DNA of 64,000 nt from a virus. Its lineage: Duplodnaviria > Caudoviricetes. The notes under the pieces are model-generated. The model was not told the DNA's origin. It was given only the letters and a program-made list of their open reading frames with translations, and made no database searches. Position 1 is the stretch's first letter; the number at the start of each line of letters is the position of its first letter. The stretch spans positions 224,001 through 288,000 of the IMG/VR virus record IMGVR_UViG_3300043754_000129. One strand, 5' to 3'. The translations under genes and the position numbers were made by a program. Positions 1,625 through 49,748 of this stretch are shown here, piece by piece.

Positions 1625-2182
1625 TTATTCAGATTTGACAGGAAAGAAGGCCGAGTACCGCTTGGGGCTGATGATAAACATGTCAGCACGGCCGCTATGC
1701 TGCATGCACACTTCTTGCGGTTCATCCCGGAACATGTAGCAGTGGCCGGGTTCGCCGTCATTCATCGCCTTGTACTTACAGGTCGAGCAGTTGTTCGGAT
1801 TGGGTCGCAGATCGAACGCACGGCGTTCTTCCAGGTTGATCTGAAACCCTTCGACGGTCAGGCCATGCAACGTCTTCGTCTTCACGTTGATCATGAAGCT
1901 ACAGAACGACGGATCCCGAATACTGCGCACGAACTGGCCGTAGATGATGTCCTTGTCCTTCCGATGCGCTGGATAGTAGACGATGGTGTACTTGGCCAGG
2001 AACATCTGCTTGTCCGTGATGCCGGCTTCCTTGAGGAAGTCCTTCAGACGGAACTGCGAACGTGCCGGGATCGGGATGATCAACGACTTGATGAAGTACT
2101 TCTGCAAGAGGCGAATGTGACGGCGCCGCAAACGCTCTTGCTCGTTATGCTTGATGCGTGCCTTGACTGCTTTGCTGAGCAT
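1625..2182 (-). CDS. hypothetical protein with basic MLSK leader and C-terminal Cys/His cluster
   Basis: start reassigned to MLSKAVKARIKH; C-terminal CxxC...HC...C possible Zn site. Confidence 0.7.
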   Translation of the reverse strand: MLSKAVKARIKHNEQERLRRRHIRLLQKYFIKSLIIPIPARSQFRLKDFLKEAGITDKQMFLAKYTIVYYPAHRKDKDIIYGQFVRSIRDPSFCSFMINVKTKTLHGLTVEGFQINLEERRAFDLRPNPNNCSTCKYKAMNDGEPGHCYMFRDEPQEVCMQHSGRADMFIISPKRYSAFFPVKSE

Positions 2183-2576
2183 TGTCCAACTCCGTATAAC
2201 GTTTCGTGACGATCGCATGCGCTTCCACCCGTACTTCTTCGAGCACGTGCGGCGGCATGGTCTCGGGGGTGTAATTGCACTCCACGCCCTTGCGGTACAG
2301 GAGGTAGGTCCACTCGCGCAGGAAGTCACGCACAAAGCTACGCGCACGATTGTCCTTCTTACGCTGTTCTGAAATGCGGCAAGCGTCTTTCAGATGGCGA
2401 TGGAAGTAATCGCACGCGGCACGGTACTCATCGCCCGGATGATCGTAGCTGAAGTAGGAACGATCATGGATACACGAAAGCGCGTAGCGAAACTGCTCGG
2501 GCGCTAGGTTGTAGTAGATCTCTTCACCCACATCGTCGATGAAGGTGACGCTACTCGGTTCAAGGACGATTCGCAT
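2145..2576 (-). CDS. hypothetical protein
   Basis: start MRIVLEP after GGATAAAG; compact gene packing. Confidence 0.65.
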   Translation of the reverse strand: MRIVLEPSSVTFIDDVGEEIYYNLAPEQFRYALSCIHDRSYFSYDHPGDEYRAACDYFHRHLKDACRISEQRKKDNRARSFVRDFLREWTYLLYRKGVECNYTPETMPPHVLEEVRVEAHAIVTKRYTELDNAQQSSQGTHQA

Positions 2577-3471
2577 CTTTATCCTCGAATTCCGAGAAGG
2601 AATCGATCGTGAAGAACGTTTTGCCTTCGACGGCATCGGGCGCCTTCACCTGTTCAACCCAGCTGTCCATGTGGCGGGCGTACGCTGCTTGCGCAACCTG
2701 AACGGCGTGAAGCGCATCGCTCGGTTCCTGGGCATTCACCAGGTCGTAGCTGATCACCTCCATCGTGCCGTCCGGCTTCTTATACATGCGTGGCGCCACC
2801 GTCGCTTCGGAGAGCATTGCCATGCGGCTATCCACTTCGCGCTGCGTGAAGATCTCCTGCGCATCACCCGCCTTCCCGATGTCTTCCAGACTGACCTTGC
2901 TGAAATCCATCTTGATGTCGAAGATCGAGCCCGTCGCCGGATTACGACGCTTGCCCCGCACGATGGTCATGAACTTCGTGGCGCTCTGATCACCTTCCTT
3001 CGCACCGGGATCCAGCCCGATGATGAATTCGGGCATGGGCTTGGGCAGCGCTTCCAGATCGTAGAAGGGTTCGTGCTCCAACGAGATCTGGATAGGCTTA
3101 CCCATCTCCATCGCCTTGTTGATCAGGTAACCGTTGAAGTCCGTGCGCCGTTCATGCTGCGGCACCGCGCGACCGATGAGGATCGGCAACTCACCCCGCT
3201 TAAAGCCACCGCCCTTCAACATCCGCTGGATGGATTCGAACCCCGTGGGAATCGGTTCATTCAGACCCTGCTCGATGAGCCTGTCGATGTCCTTCAGGAA
3301 GCTGAAGCTGCGACCCTTCTTGTTCACCGGCGACCAGATGTTGAGGAAGTCGCTCGGATGCTGACGAGCCCGACGCATAGCGCGCTGCAATTCACGCCCG
3401 GCCTTCTTGCGACACATCACGCGTCGCTGCTTGTTCTTGCGAATGCGTTCCTTCACTTGCTTGCTGAGCAT
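2560..3471 (-). CDS. mosaic protein with degenerate DnaB-like helicase fragment
   Basis: IPTGFESIQRMLKGGGFKRGELPILIG...ISLE resembles start of DnaB/RecA-like ATPase domain, but no GKT Walker A. Confidence 0.55.
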   Translation of the reverse strand: MLSKQVKERIRKNKQRRVMCRKKAGRELQRAMRRARQHPSDFLNIWSPVNKKGRSFSFLKDIDRLIEQGLNEPIPTGFESIQRMLKGGGFKRGELPILIGRAVPQHERRTDFNGYLINKAMEMGKPIQISLEHEPFYDLEALPKPMPEFIIGLDPGAKEGDQSATKFMTIVRGKRRNPATGSIFDIKMDFSKVSLEDIGKAGDAQEIFTQREVDSRMAMLSEATVAPRMYKKPDGTMEVISYDLVNAQEPSDALHAVQVAQAAYARHMDSWVEQVKAPDAVEGKTFFTIDSFSEFEDKDANRP

Positions 3472-6549: not shown

Positions 6550-6999
6550 TTAATGGACAGAGACGGACGGTTGTTTGGCCTTGGACTTCGTGTTCCAGCG
6601 CGAGTTCTTCACGGGCGCTGCGGCCGGCTTGCGGAATTGATAGCCGTCAAGCATGACCGTGTGCTCACGCATGTAACGCACGTCCTTGTTGATGGTGCCC
6701 GCACTGAGACCAAGCATCTCAGAGATACGCTTCTGCGTATAACCTTCGAAGAGCATCTTCGCGATGATCGGGTTGCGGTCCTCTTGCGCCATCCAGTACG
6801 AGAACACTTCCACGTTGTTGCGGAAGAAACGCACGCGGTGCTTGACGTCGCCCGTCTTCACATTACCGACAAAGACTTCCAGCATCGTGAGACCATTGAA
6901 CTGGTCCGTTTTGATCTGCACACGGCGCTTGGACTTCTTGTTCGTTTGATACGCTTGCAGGATGGCGTCTTCAACGACGTCGAGTTCTTTCGTATTCAT
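6550..6999 (-). CDS. helix-turn-helix DNA-binding protein
   Basis: EGYTQKRISEMLGLSAGTINKDV HTH; paralog of 10825-11274. Confidence 0.75.
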   Translation of the reverse strand: MNTKELDVVEDAILQAYQTNKKSKRRVQIKTDQFNGLTMLEVFVGNVKTGDVKHRVRFFRNNVEVFSYWMAQEDRNPIIAKMLFEGYTQKRISEMLGLSAGTINKDVRYMREHTVMLDGYQFRKPAAAPVKNSRWNTKSKAKQPSVSVH

Positions 7000-14111: not shown

Positions 14112-14201
14112 TGGCAGAGAGAAAGGGATTCGAACCCTTGGTGCAGTTGCCCACACATCGCCTTAGCAGGGCGACTCTTTAAACCGCTCGGACATCTCTC
14201 T
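14112..14201 (-). tRNA. tRNA-Ser(GCT)
   Basis: AGAGAGA/TCTCTCT acceptor, TCGCC-CT GCT AA-GGCGA, long variable arm, G73, CCA encoded. Confidence 0.93.
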
Positions 14202-14209
14202 AGAAAAGG

Positions 14210-14293
14210 GGAGCGGGCTGCAAGTGGTTTCGAGCCACCACCAAACTATCGATGCATGCATTCACGATAGCCCAGTTCCTACCGGAGCCCCGC
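14210..14293 (-). ncRNA. tRNA-like cloverleaf with 13-nt palindromic loop
   Basis: bulged GCGGGGCT/AGCCCGC stem, CCGGT-AGGA-ACTGG arm, CTATCG/CGATAG stem with loop TGAATGCATGCAT, GGTGG-CTCGAAA-CCACT T-like arm; no CCA. Confidence 0.5.
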
Positions 14294-14312
14294 ACTGAAG
14301 AAAAAAGGAAAG

Positions 14313-14392
14313 TGGGGCGCCGTAGGGGATTTGAACCCCTGTCTCCGATTCGTGCACGAACCAGCATCCTAGGCCTCTAGAAGAACAGCACC
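14313..14392 (-). tRNA. atypical tRNA with His identity (G-1:C73) and no canonical anticodon loop
   Basis: G-GTGCTGT/ACGGCGC-C-CCA, Glu-like D arm and T arm AGGGG-TTCAAAT-CCCCT; anticodon arm CTGGT-TCGTGCACGA-ATCGG. Confidence 0.75.
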
Positions 14393-14415
14393 ACTGTGAA
14401 ACACCAAACACCTTA

Positions 14416-14491
14416 GGGGTGACCACCGGGAATCGAACCCGGGACCCTCGGGGCCACATCCCGATGCTCTACCAATCTGAGCTATGGCCAC
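14416..14491 (-). tRNA. tRNA-His(GTG)
   Basis: TCGGG-AT GTG GC-CCCGA; C73; position -1 is T; 3' end CC then T. Confidence 0.9.
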
Positions 14492-14515
14492 ACCTAAGCA
14501 TGTCTAGTTGAAACT

Positions 14516-14593
14516 TGGCCCCTTGGAGTGGATTTGAACCACTGACACACCACCATTCGAGGTGGCCGCTCTACCAGACTGAGCTACCGCGGG
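14516..14593 (-). tRNA. atypical tRNA with 8-nt (or 6-nt) anticodon loop
   Basis: canonical D arm and T arm, CCA encoded; GCCAC-CTCGAATG-GTGGT; two acceptor mismatches (CCCGCGG/CCAAGGG). Confidence 0.7.
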
Positions 14594-14608
14594 ATTGAAA
14601 CAATTCAA

Positions 14609-14694
14609 TGGAGAAGAGGATGGGATTCGAACCCACGCGGGCTTGCGCCTCCAGGTTTGCAATCTGGCTCCTTCAGCCTCTCGGACACCTCTTC
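14609..14694 (-). tRNA. tRNA-Cys(GCA) with long variable arm
   Basis: GAAGAGG/CCTCTTC, U73, CCA; CCAGA-TT GCA AA-CCTGG; variable hairpin GGC-GCAA-GCC. Confidence 0.85.
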
Positions 14695-14712
14695 CACTGA
14701 CACAACAAATAC

Positions 14713-14789
14713 TGGTCGGAATTGTAGGATTCGAACCTACGACCCCCTGATCCCAAATCAGGTGCGCTACCGGGCTGCGCTAAACTCCG
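14713..14789 (-). tRNA. tRNA-Pro(TGG)
   Basis: CGGAGTT/AATTCCG, CCTGA-TT TGG GA-TCAGG, CCA encoded. Confidence 0.95.
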
Positions 14790-14806
14790 GAACTACAAAG
14801 ACGGCT

Positions 14807-14882
14807 TGGTGGCGATGGTCAGAATCGAACTGACGACCAACGGATTATGATCCCGCTGCTCTACCGACTGAGCTACATCGCC
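14807..14882 (-). tRNA. tRNA-Met or Ile2 (CAT)
   Basis: GGCGATG/CATCGCC, GCGGG-AT CAT AA-TCCGT, CCA; G1:C72 so not initiator. Confidence 0.9.
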
Positions 14883-14894
14883 GTACTACGAATC

Positions 14895-14982
14895 TGGTGG
14901 GGAAGATTGGATTCGAACCAATGTAGGACCTAAGCCCAACAGATTTACAGTCTGCCCCCTTTAGCCTCTCGGGCACCTCCCC
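14895..14982 (-). tRNA. tRNA-Tyr(GTA)
   Basis: GGGGAGG/CTTCCCC, GCAGA-CT GTA AA-TCTGT, long variable arm, CCA. Confidence 0.95.
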
Positions 14983-14989
14983 AGATGTG

Positions 14990-15540
14990 AAAGAACACAG
15001 CCCAATTTGCCTCGTGACATTTCTGTCCTGTAACCGTTTAGCGTGTGCTAACGCAGTTTGCCGCCTGAGAATTACATCCCAGAGCAGCCCGCCGCATCAC
15101 GTCATGCCGGGTGATTAGGCCGGCCAGTCCATTAAGAGGTTGACTCATTTCACCCGCAAGCCCGTGGATTTGCCAACGGAGCCCAATTAGGGTGGTGCTG
15201 TCGAGTCAAGACCTACCACGTCCTCCTTTCGGTTAGACTAGGTAGTGCAGAGTGCCCATCCAAGTAGAGTGTACGGTCATTGCTTTCTGAGGTGAGAATC
15301 GAACTCACATTTGGCCTGAGGCCGCGGCCAATGACAGCCAGCATGCGTTAGTCCCGTTGAGAGGACGCTGATTCGCATACGGGAGACTCAAGATCCCCGG
15401 GGTATACCGATTCCCCCACTCATCTCTCTACTATCGACACAACTTGCGTTTAGATCACTTTCCGTCCGTCGCGTTACCACAACGGTGGGCATGTCGGAGG
15501 TTTGGGTCTGAAGGTCCCTCGTACATGCATTGTGTATTCT
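14990..15540 (-). ncRNA. large structured non-coding RNA with embedded tRNA-like domain (boundaries approximate)
   Basis: no ORF; nested helices, GNRA hairpins, H-type pseudoknot 15096-15124, D/anticodon/T arms at 15285-15425. Confidence 0.6.
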
Positions 15541-15590
15541 CTCACATACTCTTACGCATTGCAGTAAAAAAATACTTTACTATCAATGAC

Positions 15591-15728
15591 TTAGCATCCC
15601 GGGATCATCGGAATGCCTTCGACGTACATCGGACGCGAGTAGTGAAATACCCACTTCGGTCCGACGGCGTCAAGATGAAGGTGGAGGAAGTACCTCCACC
15701 ACCATTGATAGACAGCGTAGCCGGCCAT
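15591..15728 (-). CDS. small aromatic-rich protein (45 aa)
   Basis: TAATG overlap with upstream stop; MAGYAVYQWWWRYFLHLHLDAVGPKW... Confidence 0.5.
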   Translation of the reverse strand: MAGYAVYQWWWRYFLHLHLDAVGPKWVFHYSRPMYVEGIPMIPGC

Positions 15729-16018
15729 TATGCGTTGGGCGAGACGCCCTCGGTATAACCCTTCGGCTGCGTGCCCGGCGTGATACCTGCGGCGCGCTTG
15801 AGTTGCAGACGGATCTCTTCGACCGTCAACGCGCGCGCAACCGGCATCTTCGGTACGTAGTGCAGGCCCGGACCGATACGTTCCTGCCAGTCATGCGGCA
15901 CCGGGATGACCTTCTGGTCGGCAAACTTCGAACGCCAGTTCGGTCCATGAATACGCTTCATGTAGCGCTCGAACTTGTTGCGGTCCTTGCGCTCACGCAC
16001 CTTCTTACTGCGGTTCAT
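15728..16018 (-). CDS. basic hypothetical protein
   Basis: 96 aa, GGGGAGAC RBS. Confidence 0.7.
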   Translation of the reverse strand: MNRSKKVRERKDRNKFERYMKRIHGPNWRSKFADQKVIPVPHDWQERIGPGLHYVPKMPVARALTVEEIRLQLKRAAGITPGTQPKGYTEGVSPNA

Positions 16019-49483: not shown

Positions 49484-49748
49484 CTTCTTCTCCTTCGTTG
49501 CCAAACTTCGGCAGATGTGGAAGAGTGAGTTCGAGATACTCTTTCTCTTCCACGATGTAATAGAACTTGTCGCCGATCTTTTCCCGGCCCTTATTCTTCG
49601 CAATGAGGTACAGAGTCTGCATCCTCATGTAAGCCGCGTAGAACATCAGGAACGTCATGAGGAAGCCCATGACGGCCGCCCCATAGAAGAAGTTCGGGTC
49701 ATTCAACGTAGCGTCGATGGCTTGCAGACTCATGCTGCCCCCGATCAA
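49467..49748 (-). CDS. membrane protein
   Basis: one TM helix; 93 aa. Confidence 0.65.

What the first reader, a model, noticed from the sequence alone, without database searches (positions are those of the whole stretch)
14990..15540. Large structured ncRNA with an embedded, non-aminoacylatable tRNA-like domain heading the tRNA cluster
Seen on the minus strand: about 550 nt with no credible ORF but many nested helices. A tRNA-like module at 15285-15425 has a Leu/Ser-type D arm (TGGGGGAATCGGTATACCCC), an anticodon-like arm (GGGAT-CTTGAGT-CTCCC) and a canonical T arm (GTGAG-TTCGATT-CTCAC). Its variable region is swollen to about 70 nt with two hairpins (GTATGCG/CGCATGC; TGGCC/GGCCA). It has no CCA end. 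Its 4-bp acceptor remnant (TGAG/CTCA) continues into a long irregular stem (GTAGAG/CTCTAC, GTGTC/GGCAC), so the cloverleaf is a domain of a bigger RNA. Downstream are CC-GAAA-GG and GACA-GAAA-TGTC GNRA hairpins, a multibranch domain closed by TTGACTC/GAGTCAA (15203-15209 with 15140-15146), an H-type pseudoknot (GCCGG/CCGGC plus ATCAC/GTGAT, 15096-15124) and further hairpins. Established: large ornate phage ncRNAs (GOLLD, ROOL) sit in tRNA clusters and bacterial Y RNAs mimic tRNA. I do not recognise this architecture as any of them. Inference: a new large tRNA-mimic RNA, perhaps a scaffold or decoy.
Basis: partly seen in the sequence, partly recalled or inferred. Interest (0 to 1): 0.85.

Follow-up and report, generated by a model that had tools for sequence, protein, structure and literature searches.

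The report
Phage tRNA-Leu mimic inside 570-nt RNA
A jumbo phage encodes, ahead of its tRNA genes, a roughly 570-base folded RNA built around a leucine-tRNA look-alike that has no conserved anticodon and no free end to carry an amino acid. The look-alike belongs to an uncatalogued RNA family found in many phages, and its job is unknown.

Summary
Window 15550-14983 (minus strand) is non-coding and matches no Rfam family. In the window and two close metagenomic relatives it folds as one closed RNA: a 16-17-bp terminal helix with two compensatory pairs ends 1 nt before tRNA-Tyr.

Its core (15432-15263) belongs to a family of about 25 distinct sequences from phage and metagenome contigs, including Xanthomonas phage RTH11 and Ralstonia phages RP12/RP31.

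The family keeps these tRNA-Leu features:
- a class-II D arm with U8, A14, A15, G18G19 and U48;
- a T arm;
- 3-4 bp of acceptor stem.

The anticodon arm is replaced by variable hairpins. The variable-arm loop pairs with the 3' tail just after CUCAGARAR, forming a 7-bp pseudoknot in which every pair covaries. A covarying stem seals the ends, so there is no CCA.

My covariance model scores members at 60-147 bits and real tRNAs at 41 bits or less. Each of the six genomes searched has one copy. Relatives' copies occur in four soil metatranscriptomes.

Function is untested. My best guess is a non-chargeable tRNA-Leu body mimic that engages LeuRS, RNase P or another factor that reads the tRNA elbow.

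This scan has met related tRNA-Leu-derived phage RNAs before on other DNA.

The parts
14983..15550 (-). Whole closed structured RNA, about 568 nt: 5' domain, tRNA-Leu-like module and 3' domain. Its 3' end abuts tRNA-Tyr (14982).
   Evidence: RNAalifold on the window, L069 and L112 gives 147 pairs, 29 of them with compensatory changes. There is no Rfam match. The MFE z-score is -2.5.
15534..15550 (-). Terminal helix P1, 5' strand (AGUAUGUGAGAGAAUAC).
   Evidence: It pairs with 14998-14983. Of 16 predicted pairs, two show compensatory changes in L112 (G-C to A-U and A-U to G-C), two change on one side and one is broken.
14983..14998 (-). Terminal helix P1, 3' strand (GUGUUCUUUCACAUCU). It ends 1 nt before tRNA-Tyr +1.
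   Evidence: That RNase P cleavage of tRNA-Tyr would leave this as the RNA's 3' end is an inference.
15466..15528 (-). 5' domain: hairpin GCAUGU...ACAUGC (15528-15489) and hairpin CCGUUGUGGUAACGCGACGG (15485-15466).
   Evidence: Three compensatory pairs in the first hairpin and two in the second across L069 and L112.
15436..15440 (-). Stem GUGUC, pairing with GGCAC (15256-15252). It encloses the tRNA-like module.
   Evidence: Two pairs show compensatory changes: UA/GC/CG and GC/AU.
15263..15432 (-). tRNA-Leu-like module (family member), bounded by outer stem AGUAGAG (15432-15426) / CUCUACU (15269-15263).
   Evidence: Model R1 scores it at 141 bits against 41 bits or less for tRNAs. An outer stem is present with a different sequence in 15 of 17 members.
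15399..15424 (-). Acceptor remnant 5' strand (GAUGAG), U8, G9 and a class-II D arm: 3-bp stem, A14, A15, G18G19.
   Evidence: GAGUGG.GGAA..GG is invariant. D-stem pair 11:24 covaries: GC 10, UA 4, CG 2, UG 1. It is near-identical to the D arms of phage tRNA-Leu genes.
15341..15398 (-). Variable region in place of the anticodon arm: hairpin GGGGAUCUUGAGUCUCCC (15398-15381) and branched hairpin GUAUGCG...CGCAUGC (15380-15341).
   Evidence: The D-arm-to-T-arm spacing differs widely between family members and the sequence is not alignable. The loop differs among the three close relatives.
15325..15339 (-). Variable-arm hairpin (stem GGC/GCC plus U-G pairs). Its loop GUCAUUG (15335-15329) is the 5' strand of pseudoknot helix X.
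   Evidence: The stem covaries (CG 12, GC 2, GU 1). The hairpin lies at the variable-arm position directly before the T arm in the minimal members L007 and L039.
15313..15323 (-). Small hairpin GGCC-UCA-GGCC between the variable-arm hairpin and the T arm.
   Evidence: All four pairs have compensatory changes where the hairpin is present; it is absent in minimal members.
15292..15308 (-). T arm GUGAG-UUCGAUU-CUCAC, preceded by invariant U48 (15309).
   Evidence: 100% paired, with four of five pairs showing compensatory changes.
15276..15291 (-). CUC (acceptor 3' strand), purine linker AGAAAG, and CAAUGAC (helix X 3' strand, 15282-15276).
   Evidence: All seven pairs of helix X have compensatory changes and 95.8% of cells pair. 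The linker consensus is AGARAR, once members found without using this motif are included.
14999..15251 (-). 3' domain: conserved blocks separated by hypervariable stretches. It includes GACUC/GAGUC (15207-15203 with 15146-15142), GCCGG..CCGGC (15124-15106), GCACACGCUAAACGG (15048-15034) and the hairpin GACA-GAAA-UGUC (15027-15016).
   Evidence: Conserved only in L069 and L112. The last hairpin covaries (GAUCU/AGGUC in L069). No similarity elsewhere in the genome or to the RTH11/L085 extensions. The remaining pairings are tentative.
15563..15576 (-). AGUA-U7-ACU palindromic AT-run motif, 13 nt upstream of P1. Possibly a phage promoter.
   Evidence: gtaTTTTTTTAC recurs at two other sites of the 324-kb, 57% GC genome (82199+, 105952-), with a looser T7AC at 49529+. 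It also lies upstream of the module in L003 and RP12. Its A/T run is inverted in L069 and L112, so its role is uncertain.

Best explanation
Window 15550-14983 (minus strand) encodes one stable, non-coding, multi-domain RNA of about 570 nt.

Synthesis (inferred):
- It is transcribed with the tRNA operon.
- Its 3' end is made when RNase P cuts at the 5' end of tRNA-Tyr.
- Its two ends are zipped together by a 16-17-bp helix.

The core (shown by comparison and covariation):
- The functional core is a tRNA-Leu-derived module that is an independent gene in many other phages.
- The module keeps what gives a leucine tRNA its L-shaped body: U8:A14, the Leu-type A15:U48 pair, G18G19 against the T loop, a class-II D arm, a T arm and three to four acceptor pairs.
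- The anticodon arm has become a variable insert.
- The variable-arm loop is base-paired to the 3' tail.
- The acceptor helix runs on into a closing stem, so there is no 3' end to charge.

How it works (inferred, not shown):
- The RNA presents a tRNA-Leu body that can be bound but neither charged nor decoded.
- It thereby occupies or recruits a factor that reads the tRNA elbow and core rather than the anticodon or CCA end.
- Leucyl-tRNA synthetase is the most specific candidate. RNase P and other tRNA-processing enzymes are alternatives.
- The variable inserts, and in this lineage the extra 5' and 3' domains, ride on this scaffold.
For: What it is:
- No ORF and no Rfam or ARAGORN hit.
- About 25 distinct homologues, from phage and metagenome contigs only.
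- None of the 50 bacterial-genome hits to the 3' motif had the D-arm motif.
- R1 scores members at 60-147 bits against 41 bits or less for tRNAs, with one copy per genome in six genomes.
- Covariation is strong for the T arm, D stem, variable-arm hairpin, helix X and outer stem.
- In this lineage P1, the GUGUC/GGCAC stem and the 5' hairpins show compensatory changes.

Leu origin:
- The D arm is near-identical to phage tRNA-Leu genes, and one search pattern also found a true tRNA-Leu(GAG).
- The best T4 match to R1 is tRNA-Leu.
- The module abuts a tRNA-Leu gene in four lineages.

Expression:
- Contigs covering 15272-15423, with flanks typical of the close relatives, occur in four soil metatranscriptomes from four studies.

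Mechanism:
- The invariant positions coincide with the published bacterial LeuRS identity set: A15-U48, G18G19 and the D/T-loop tertiary pairs.
- Neither an anticodon loop nor a free acceptor end is conserved, which argues against a decoy for anticodon nucleases or for enzymes that attack the CCA end.
Against: - No experiment or tool here shows binding to any protein. The LeuRS complex job was not folded.
- Most conserved nucleotides are universal tRNA-fold elements, so conservation could reflect folding and stability alone.
- A73 and the CCA end, which are required for leucylation, are not available in a normal acceptor context.
- No protein gene is a conserved neighbour.
- The 570-nt form rests on only three closely related sequences, and much of the 3' domain fold is tentative.
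- The metatranscriptome contigs could in principle come from contaminating DNA.
- The family was collected largely by motif searches, so its apparent uniformity is partly due to how members were found. The linker proved to be AGARAR, not an invariant AGAAAG.
Confidence: 0.55

Rival explanations
1. It is a cis-acting structural and processing module. The tRNA-like fold serves only as a compact, nuclease-resistant scaffold and punctuation mark. It stabilises the transcript, directs RNase P/E/Z cuts in the polycistronic tRNA precursor, and presents lineage-specific hairpins that carry the real activity. This would be a natural counterpart of the laboratory 'tRNA scaffold'.
For: - The conserved parts are those that make the tRNA fold, while the anticodon-arm position is a hypervariable insertion site.
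- The module sits between tRNA genes with 1-5-nt spacers in L007 and L039.
- P1 ends 1 nt before tRNA-Tyr.
- No conserved protein neighbour was found.
Against: - In RTH11, RP12, L003, L021, L025 and L085 no tRNA gene is adjacent to the module.
- A generic scaffold does not explain retention of the Leu-type A15:U48 pair and D loop, nor the conserved purine linker and pseudoknot.
Confidence: 0.25
2. It is a cis-regulatory leader, such as a riboswitch or a sensor of a protein or tRNA, that controls expression of the downstream tRNA operon or gene.
For: - It lies at the head of the tRNA cluster here and directly upstream of genes in L003 and RP12 (an RLIG1-like RNA ligase) and L025 (terminase).
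- A second GUCAUUG heptamer at 15590-15584 could compete with the variable-arm loop for the CAAUGAC tail.
Against: - Downstream genes are unrelated across lineages, and in L007 and L039 it lies in the middle of a tRNA array.
- No terminator or anti-terminator pair, and no ribosome-binding-site sequestering helix, is conserved.
- In L085 it is followed by about 390 nt of further non-coding sequence (about 150 nt in RTH11) ending in a terminator or terminator-like hairpin, like a stand-alone RNA gene.
Confidence: 0.1
3. After processing it becomes a chargeable, non-decoding Leu acceptor. Cleavage near the purine linker and CCA addition would yield a leucylated tRNA-like RNA used outside the ribosome, for example as a Leu donor.
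For: - E. coli tRNA-Leu without the anticodon and variable arms is still leucylated if A73 and the D/T tertiary pairs are intact (PMC9976931).
- Counting from the T stem, position 73 is an invariant A within CUCAGARAR.
Against: - Only 3-4 Watson-Crick acceptor pairs exist, and positions 1-3 and 70-72 do not pair.
- No CCA is encoded.
- Helix X and the outer stem covary, so the 3' tail is under selection as part of the fold.
Confidence: 0.06
4. It is a decayed tRNA-Leu pseudogene or attachment-site remnant with no RNA-level function, or a divergent member of a known class (GOLLD, ROOL, tmRNA, RNase P RNA, Y RNA/YrlA, group I intron).
For: - Its tRNA-Leu ancestry is clear.
- Large phage RNAs near tRNA clusters are known (GOLLD and ROOL; my own knowledge, and bioRxiv 10.1101/2024.12.08.627333 listed).
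Against: - Compensatory changes occur in five helices across about 25 sequences.
- No Rfam hit at E up to 10.
- ARAGORN finds no tmRNA.
- The genome has no TROVE/Ro or RtcB gene.
- The strand order is not permuted as it is in YrlA.
Confidence: 0.03

Closest known systems
Bacterial and phage class-II tRNA-Leu
   Same: - D arm (3-bp stem, A14, A15, G18G19), U8, U48 and the T arm with a UUCRANU loop.
- Acceptor pairs 5-7:66-68 and a hairpin at the variable-arm position.
- It often lies next to a tRNA-Leu gene.
   Different: - No conserved anticodon loop.
- The acceptor stem is cut to 3-4 bp and continues into a closing stem, so there is no NCCA end.
- The variable-arm loop is enlarged to 6-7 nt and paired to the 3' tail.
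- ARAGORN and Rfam RF00005 do not detect it.
tRNA-Leu-derived, anticodon-less phage RNAs met earlier in this scan, for example Bacillus phage SPP1 6653-6748
   Same: - A tRNA-Leu-type D arm and T arm.
- The anticodon arm is replaced by a structured insert.
- The ends are sealed in a helix.
- It is carried by phages and absent from Rfam.
   Different: - SPP1 scores only 16 bits with R1.
- It has a full 8-bp acceptor-like helix.
- It lacks CUCAGARAR and the pseudoknot between the variable-arm loop and the tail.
- At most this is the same superfamily, not the same family.
GOLLD and ROOL large ornate RNAs
   Same: - Several hundred nucleotides long, multi-domain and pseudoknotted.
- Carried by phages, often beside tRNA genes, with unknown function (my own knowledge, and bioRxiv 10.1101/2024.12.08.627333 listed).
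   Different: - No covariance-model match.
- Different hosts.
- Here the large form is lineage-specific, and only the tRNA-like core is widespread.
- Oligomerisation was not tested.
Bacterial Y RNA YrlA (Rfam RF02553)
   Same: A non-coding RNA with a tRNA-like D/T elbow module and a long stem formed by its two ends.
   Different: - The YrlA module is circularly permuted (T arm, capped acceptor, D arm), and its end stem replaces the anticodon stem and binds Ro/Rsr.
- Here the order is D then T, and the end stem extends the acceptor.
- There is no RF02553 hit on the element and no TROVE or RtcB gene in the genome.
Phage T4 species 1 and 2 RNAs (rnaC, rnaD)
   Same: Small RNAs annotated as stable and encoded in a phage tRNA cluster. 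That they have partial tRNA features and an unknown function is my own knowledge.
   Different: R1 matches only the rnaC T arm (11 bits). There is no shared D arm, linker or pseudoknot.

Membership tests
tRNA (Rfam RF00005; class-II tRNA-Leu) | Detected by tRNA covariance or heuristic models. | tested here: not met
   ARAGORN and cmscan find the seven flanking tRNAs but nothing in 14990-15550, even at E up to 10.
tRNA (Rfam RF00005; class-II tRNA-Leu) | A 7-bp acceptor stem with a free discriminator-CCA 3' end. | tested here: not met
   Only GAG/CUC (plus U-A in some members) pairs. The 3' strand continues as AGARAR, helix X and the closing stem.
tRNA (Rfam RF00005; class-II tRNA-Leu) | An anticodon arm with a conserved 7-nt loop and a Leu anticodon. 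| tested here: not met
   The loop is CUUGAGU, CGAAUGCGA or CUAAACA in three close relatives. The region is not alignable across the family.
tRNA (Rfam RF00005; class-II tRNA-Leu) | D arm and T arm with the elbow nucleotides (U8, A14, A15:U48, G18G19, U54-A58). | tested here: met
   These positions are invariant, and both stems covary.
GOLLD (RF01998) / ROOL (RF03087) | A match to the family covariance model. | tested here: not met
   No hit at the gathering threshold on the whole window, or at E up to 10 on 14850-15750.
YrlA / bacterial Y RNA (RF02553) | A covariance-model match, a permuted tRNA-like module and a Ro/Rsr (TROVE) partner gene. | tested here: not met
   The only hit is spurious: 18.9 bits on real tRNAs, against a gathering score of 69. 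The genome has no TROVE or RtcB gene. The strand order is not permuted.
tmRNA (one-piece or permuted) | An alanine-type acceptor formed by the 5' and 3' ends, a tag reading frame, and detection by ARAGORN or Rfam. | tested here: not met
   ARAGORN reports no tmRNA. The only permuted-tmRNA hit is 14.3 bits on tRNA-Tyr, against a gathering score of 47.
The new phage tRNA-Leu-like family defined here (model R1) | Outer closing stem; GAG-U-G plus a Leu-type D arm; variable insert; variable-arm hairpin whose loop pairs with the tail after CUCAGARAR; T arm. | tested here: met
   The window element scores 141 bits and has every feature.
Earlier-scan tRNA-Leu-derived phage RNA superfamily (SPP1 type) | A tRNA-Leu D and T arms, loss of the anticodon arm and sealed ends. 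| tested here: inconclusive
   The SPP1 element shares the D and T arms and the sealed ends. It scores only 16 bits and lacks the linker and pseudoknot. Common descent is plausible but not shown.

The most novel reading that the evidence does not exclude
The 570-nt RNA is a new class of large ornate phage RNA, comparable to GOLLD and ROOL, built around a tRNA-Leu body that LeuRS can recognise. It would work as an RNA-protein or RNA-only assembly that captures leucyl-tRNA synthetase or another elbow-reading factor during infection by a nucleus-forming jumbo phage. The stand-alone 130-230-nt modules in other phages would be the minimal version of the same device.
Probability: 0.25. Interest if true: 0.85.

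Novelty: new variant of a known kind. Interest (0 to 1): 0.7.

Why it matters
tRNA mimicry is well known in plant RNA viruses, tmRNA, Y RNAs and MALAT1. In phages, the stable tRNA-like RNAs of tRNA clusters (T4 rnaC and rnaD) have stayed unexplained for decades.

This work defines a covariation-supported family with a clear architecture. The family is absent from Rfam 15 and from the papers I could search. It is present in cultured phages (Ralstonia RP12 and RP31, Xanthomonas RTH11), so it can be tested directly.

The family keeps the determinants that bacterial LeuRS reads and discards those needed for decoding and charging. That gives a concrete hypothesis about how phages interfere with, or borrow, the host tRNA machinery. 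It also shows that genome annotation misses a recurrent class of phage RNA genes.

The ~570-nt closed form adds a candidate to the short list of very large structured bacterial and phage RNAs.

Tried and rejected
- Rfam at the gathering threshold and at E up to 10: no family.
- Hammerhead reading of 'GAUGAG...GAAA': rejected. The CUGA core is not conserved, and GAUGAG is inherited from the tRNA-Leu acceptor.
- Group I intron in tRNA-Leu: rejected. The insert is only 35-130 nt and there is no Rfam hit.
- Y RNA: no TROVE or RtcB gene.
- T4 rnaC/rnaD homology: rejected.
- Linkage to the RLIG1-like RNA ligase seen in L003 and RP12: not general. The window's genome has the ligase about 188 kb away (genome 50573-51136) without the module. 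Other members have unrelated neighbours.
- Similarity of the 3' domain to other parts of the genome, or to the RTH11 and L085 extensions: none. A viral-contig scan for its conserved blocks found nothing.
- Sigma-70 promoter or terminator inside the region: none. The only terminator-like hairpin, at 15700-15680, lies upstream.
- LeuRS plus module complex prediction: the job was not folded and gives no evidence either way.
- Minimum-free-energy z-scores of the module alone are unremarkable, -0.9 to -1.6. The support comes from covariation, not thermodynamics.
- Contig ends in the metatranscriptomes are inconsistent, so they do not define the RNA's ends.
Full report
**Setting**

The window is bases 224001-288000 of a 323,678-bp virus record with 57% GC. 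An RNA-ligase gene elsewhere in the genome is 72% identical in protein to that of a 283-kb uncultured phage (L003). BLAST links the region to Ralstonia jumbo phages RP12 and RP31 and to Xanthomonas phage RTH11. On the minus strand ARAGORN and Rfam find seven tRNA genes at 14112-14982. They find nothing between tRNA-Tyr (14982) and the upstream gene, even at E up to 10. No minus-strand ORF inside the region exceeds 45 aa. The 104-aa plus-strand ORF that overlaps the 5' part is broken by 1- and 2-nt indels in the relatives.

**Checking the observation**

To see whether they mean anything I looked for homologues.

- BLAST found an 87-nt match in an unannotated ~500-nt gap of phage RTH11.
- A pattern from the D-arm side found two jumbo-phage contigs (L003, and L005, which is RP12). 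It also found a genuine tRNA-Leu(GAG) with the same 5' half.
- Patterns from the T-arm side found further members in IMG/VR and metagenomes.
- The same pattern gave 50 hits in the bacterial species-representative genomes, and none of them had the D-arm motif.
- The 3' motif had been part of most queries. I therefore repeated the search with a pattern that does not use it. This returned known members plus two new ones whose linker reads AGAGAA or AGAGAG.
- A last scan with that variant added five more members.
- In all there are about 25 distinct sequences, on contigs from 1 kb to 389 kb.

**Architecture of the family**

From 5' to 3' the elements are as follows.

- An outer stem of 6-16 bp whose sequence differs in almost every lineage.
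- 1-4 unpaired nucleotides.
- The invariant GAG-U-G, followed by a class-II D arm. The stem has 3 bp, and pair 11:24 reads GC 10, UA 4, CG 2, UG 1. The loop carries A14, A15 and G18G19.
- A hairpin at the anticodon-arm position, usually followed by further hairpins. This stretch differs widely in length between members and is not alignable.
- A hairpin at the variable-arm position with a 4-5-bp covarying stem and a 6-7-nt loop.
- An optional small hairpin.
- The invariant U48 and a T arm with a UUCRANU loop.
- CUC, which pairs with the 5' GAG as tRNA positions 5-7:66-68.
- A six-purine linker, AGARAR.
- A heptamer complementary to the variable-arm loop (helix X).
- 3-6 nucleotides beginning with C.
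- The 3' strand of the outer stem.

Because GAG/CUC and helix X interleave, the fold is a pseudoknot.

**Statistical support**

On a 17-sequence alignment of the 3' half, 94.4% of cells form standard pairs against 70.8% in shuffles. The covariation score is 0.621 against 0.199 in shuffles and 0.06-0.11 when the partners are slid. None of 500 shuffles reaches the observed value on any measure. All seven pairs of helix X and four of the five T-stem pairs have compensatory changes.

Finding the outer stem by chance is unlikely in most members taken singly. It is very unlikely jointly.

A covariance model built from the family scores members at 60-147 bits and real tRNAs at 41 bits or less. It finds exactly one copy in each of six complete or near-complete phage genomes.

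**The large RNA in this lineage**

Two metagenomic contigs, L069 and L112, are close relatives across the whole gap. Conserved blocks alternate with stretches that differ in length and sequence, as expected for a structured RNA. RNAalifold on the three sequences predicts a closed molecule.

- Window 15550-15534 pairs with 14998-14983. Two pairs are compensated in L112 (G-C to A-U and A-U to G-C). The 3' strand ends one base before tRNA-Tyr.
- A 5' hairpin (15528-15489) has three compensated pairs.
- The hairpin GACA-GAAA-UGUC becomes GAUCU-UAAAC-AGGUC in L069.
- The GACUC/GAGUC helix closes a stretch that varies widely in length, but the helix itself never varies.
- The proposed H-type pseudoknot keeps its first stem, with one base pair deleted, and keeps AUCA/UGAU. 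RNAalifold offers a competing partner for part of it.

The detailed fold of the 3' domain is not settled.

In other lineages the module stands alone.

- It lies between tRNA genes with spacers of a few bases in L007 and L039.
- In L085 it is followed by about 390 nt of other non-coding sequence ending in an intrinsic terminator. RTH11 has about 150 nt ending in a terminator-like hairpin.
- It lies upstream of an RLIG1-like RNA ligase in L003 and RP12.
- It lies beside a terminase, portal or SSB gene in L025, L021 and L049.

**Origin**

The D arm is nearly the same as that of phage tRNA-Leu genes. The best match of the model in phage T4 is tRNA-Leu. The module abuts a tRNA-Leu gene in four separate lineages. 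It is therefore a derivative of a class-II tRNA-Leu gene.

**Expression**

Four soil metatranscriptome runs from four studies contain contigs of 151-319 nt that cover window 15272-15423 at roughly 90-95% likeness. Their flanks match the L069/L112 type. Nothing from these runs lies on the neighbouring coding sequence. This fits an abundant, stable RNA in relatives.

**How it most likely works**

Shown:
- It has a conserved tRNA-like core.
- It has no conserved anticodon.
- It has no free acceptor end.
- The variable arm is tied to the 3' tail.
- The ends are sealed.

Inferred:
- It is transcribed with the tRNA operon.
- Its 3' end is formed by RNase P cleavage of tRNA-Tyr.
- It folds into an L shape.

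The functional reading rests on the pattern of what is kept and what is lost. Decoys for anticodon nucleases or for enzymes that attack the CCA end are unlikely, because those parts are absent or variable. What remains is the elbow and core.

The published identity set of bacterial LeuRS is the A15-U48 pair, G18G19, A20a, the D/T-loop tertiary pairs and A73. E. coli tRNA-Leu without its anticodon arm and long variable arm is still recognised (PMC9976931, section 12). The family keeps this set except a usable acceptor end.

I therefore favour a tRNA-Leu body that can be bound but not charged, and that occupies or recruits LeuRS or another elbow-reading factor such as RNase P. I put about 0.3 on LeuRS specifically and about 0.5 on core mimicry in general.

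The main rival is a purely structural scaffold and processing module that carries lineage-specific payload hairpins. A cis-regulatory leader and a chargeable non-decoding Leu acceptor are less likely. A dead pseudogene or a known RNA class is essentially excluded.

**Comparison with what is known**

- It is not a tRNA by any detector, and it fails the acceptor and anticodon criteria.
- It is not GOLLD, ROOL, tmRNA, RNase P RNA or YrlA. There are no model hits, no Ro or RtcB gene, and the strand order differs.
- It is not related to T4 rnaC or rnaD beyond a T arm.
- I found no description of it in the papers I could search. A 2023 catalogue of about 10,000 viral structured-RNA candidates could contain it unnamed (PMC10690425).
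- This scan has met tRNA-Leu-derived, anticodon-less phage RNAs before on other DNA.
- I checked the one named example, phage SPP1. It has such an element at 6653-6748, with a Leu-type D arm and sealed ends. It scores only 16 bits and has neither the purine linker nor the pseudoknot.
- The present family is thus at most a distinct branch of a wider superfamily.

**Verdict**

It is a new variant of a known kind (tRNA-derived mimic RNAs). It has a well-defined structure, cultured representatives and a testable hypothesis, but no demonstrated function.

Noticed in passing
window 14516-14593 (-): ARAGORN calls a tRNA with a four-base anticodon (cgaa) and no assigned amino acid. Rfam scores it at only 43 bits.
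   Followed up: no
window 14202-14415 (-): A 214-nt gap between tRNA-Ser and tRNA-His inside the otherwise tight tRNA array. Other first-stage notes place undetected tRNA-like genes there.
   Followed up: no
window 15584-15590 (-): A second copy of the heptamer GUCAUUG, identical to the variable-arm loop, lies in a 12-nt block (UAAGUCAUUGAU) conserved in L069 and L112. If transcribed, it could compete for the CAAUGAC tail.
   Followed up: no
window 15591-15728 (-), with hairpin 15700-15680: Compared with L069 and L112, the window has about 140 extra bases between the upstream gene's stop and the conserved block. They contain a terminator-like hairpin and a 45-aa ORF.
   Followed up: partly
L045:1430-1500 (genome 50502-50572), L003 about 2130-2185 (-), L005 about 3050-3110 (-): A conserved hairpin with a T-loop-like GGGAUUCGAAAC sequence lies directly upstream of the RLIG1-like RNA ligase gene in the window's genome, in L003 and in RP12. 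It may be a 5'-UTR element of the ligase.
   Followed up: partly
L016:1305-1789 and L049:2016-2092: Phage tRNA-Leu genes of only 76-77 nt, which is too short for the long variable arm. In both loci the tRNA-Leu-like module abuts one of these genes.
   Followed up: no
L085:11545-11935 (-) and L001:3088-3240 (+): In RTH11-type phages the module is followed by further ORF-free sequence: about 390 nt ending in an intrinsic terminator in L085, and about 150 nt ending in a terminator-like hairpin in RTH11. Parts are shared between the two, but nothing matches the window's 3' domain.
   Followed up: partly
L192 (Bacillus phage SPP1) 6640-6810 (+): An unannotated tRNA-Leu-like element with an 8-bp closed acceptor-like helix, followed by a second T-arm-like hairpin, between genes 10 and 11.
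   Followed up: partly
genome about 93-96 kb and about 218 kb (outside the window): A second tRNA cluster gives weak model hits at 93920-95622. Earlier notes report 'double tRNA' genes there and another ~550-nt ORF-free RNA about 5.8 kb before the window. BLAST shows no similarity between that RNA and this one.
   Followed up: partly
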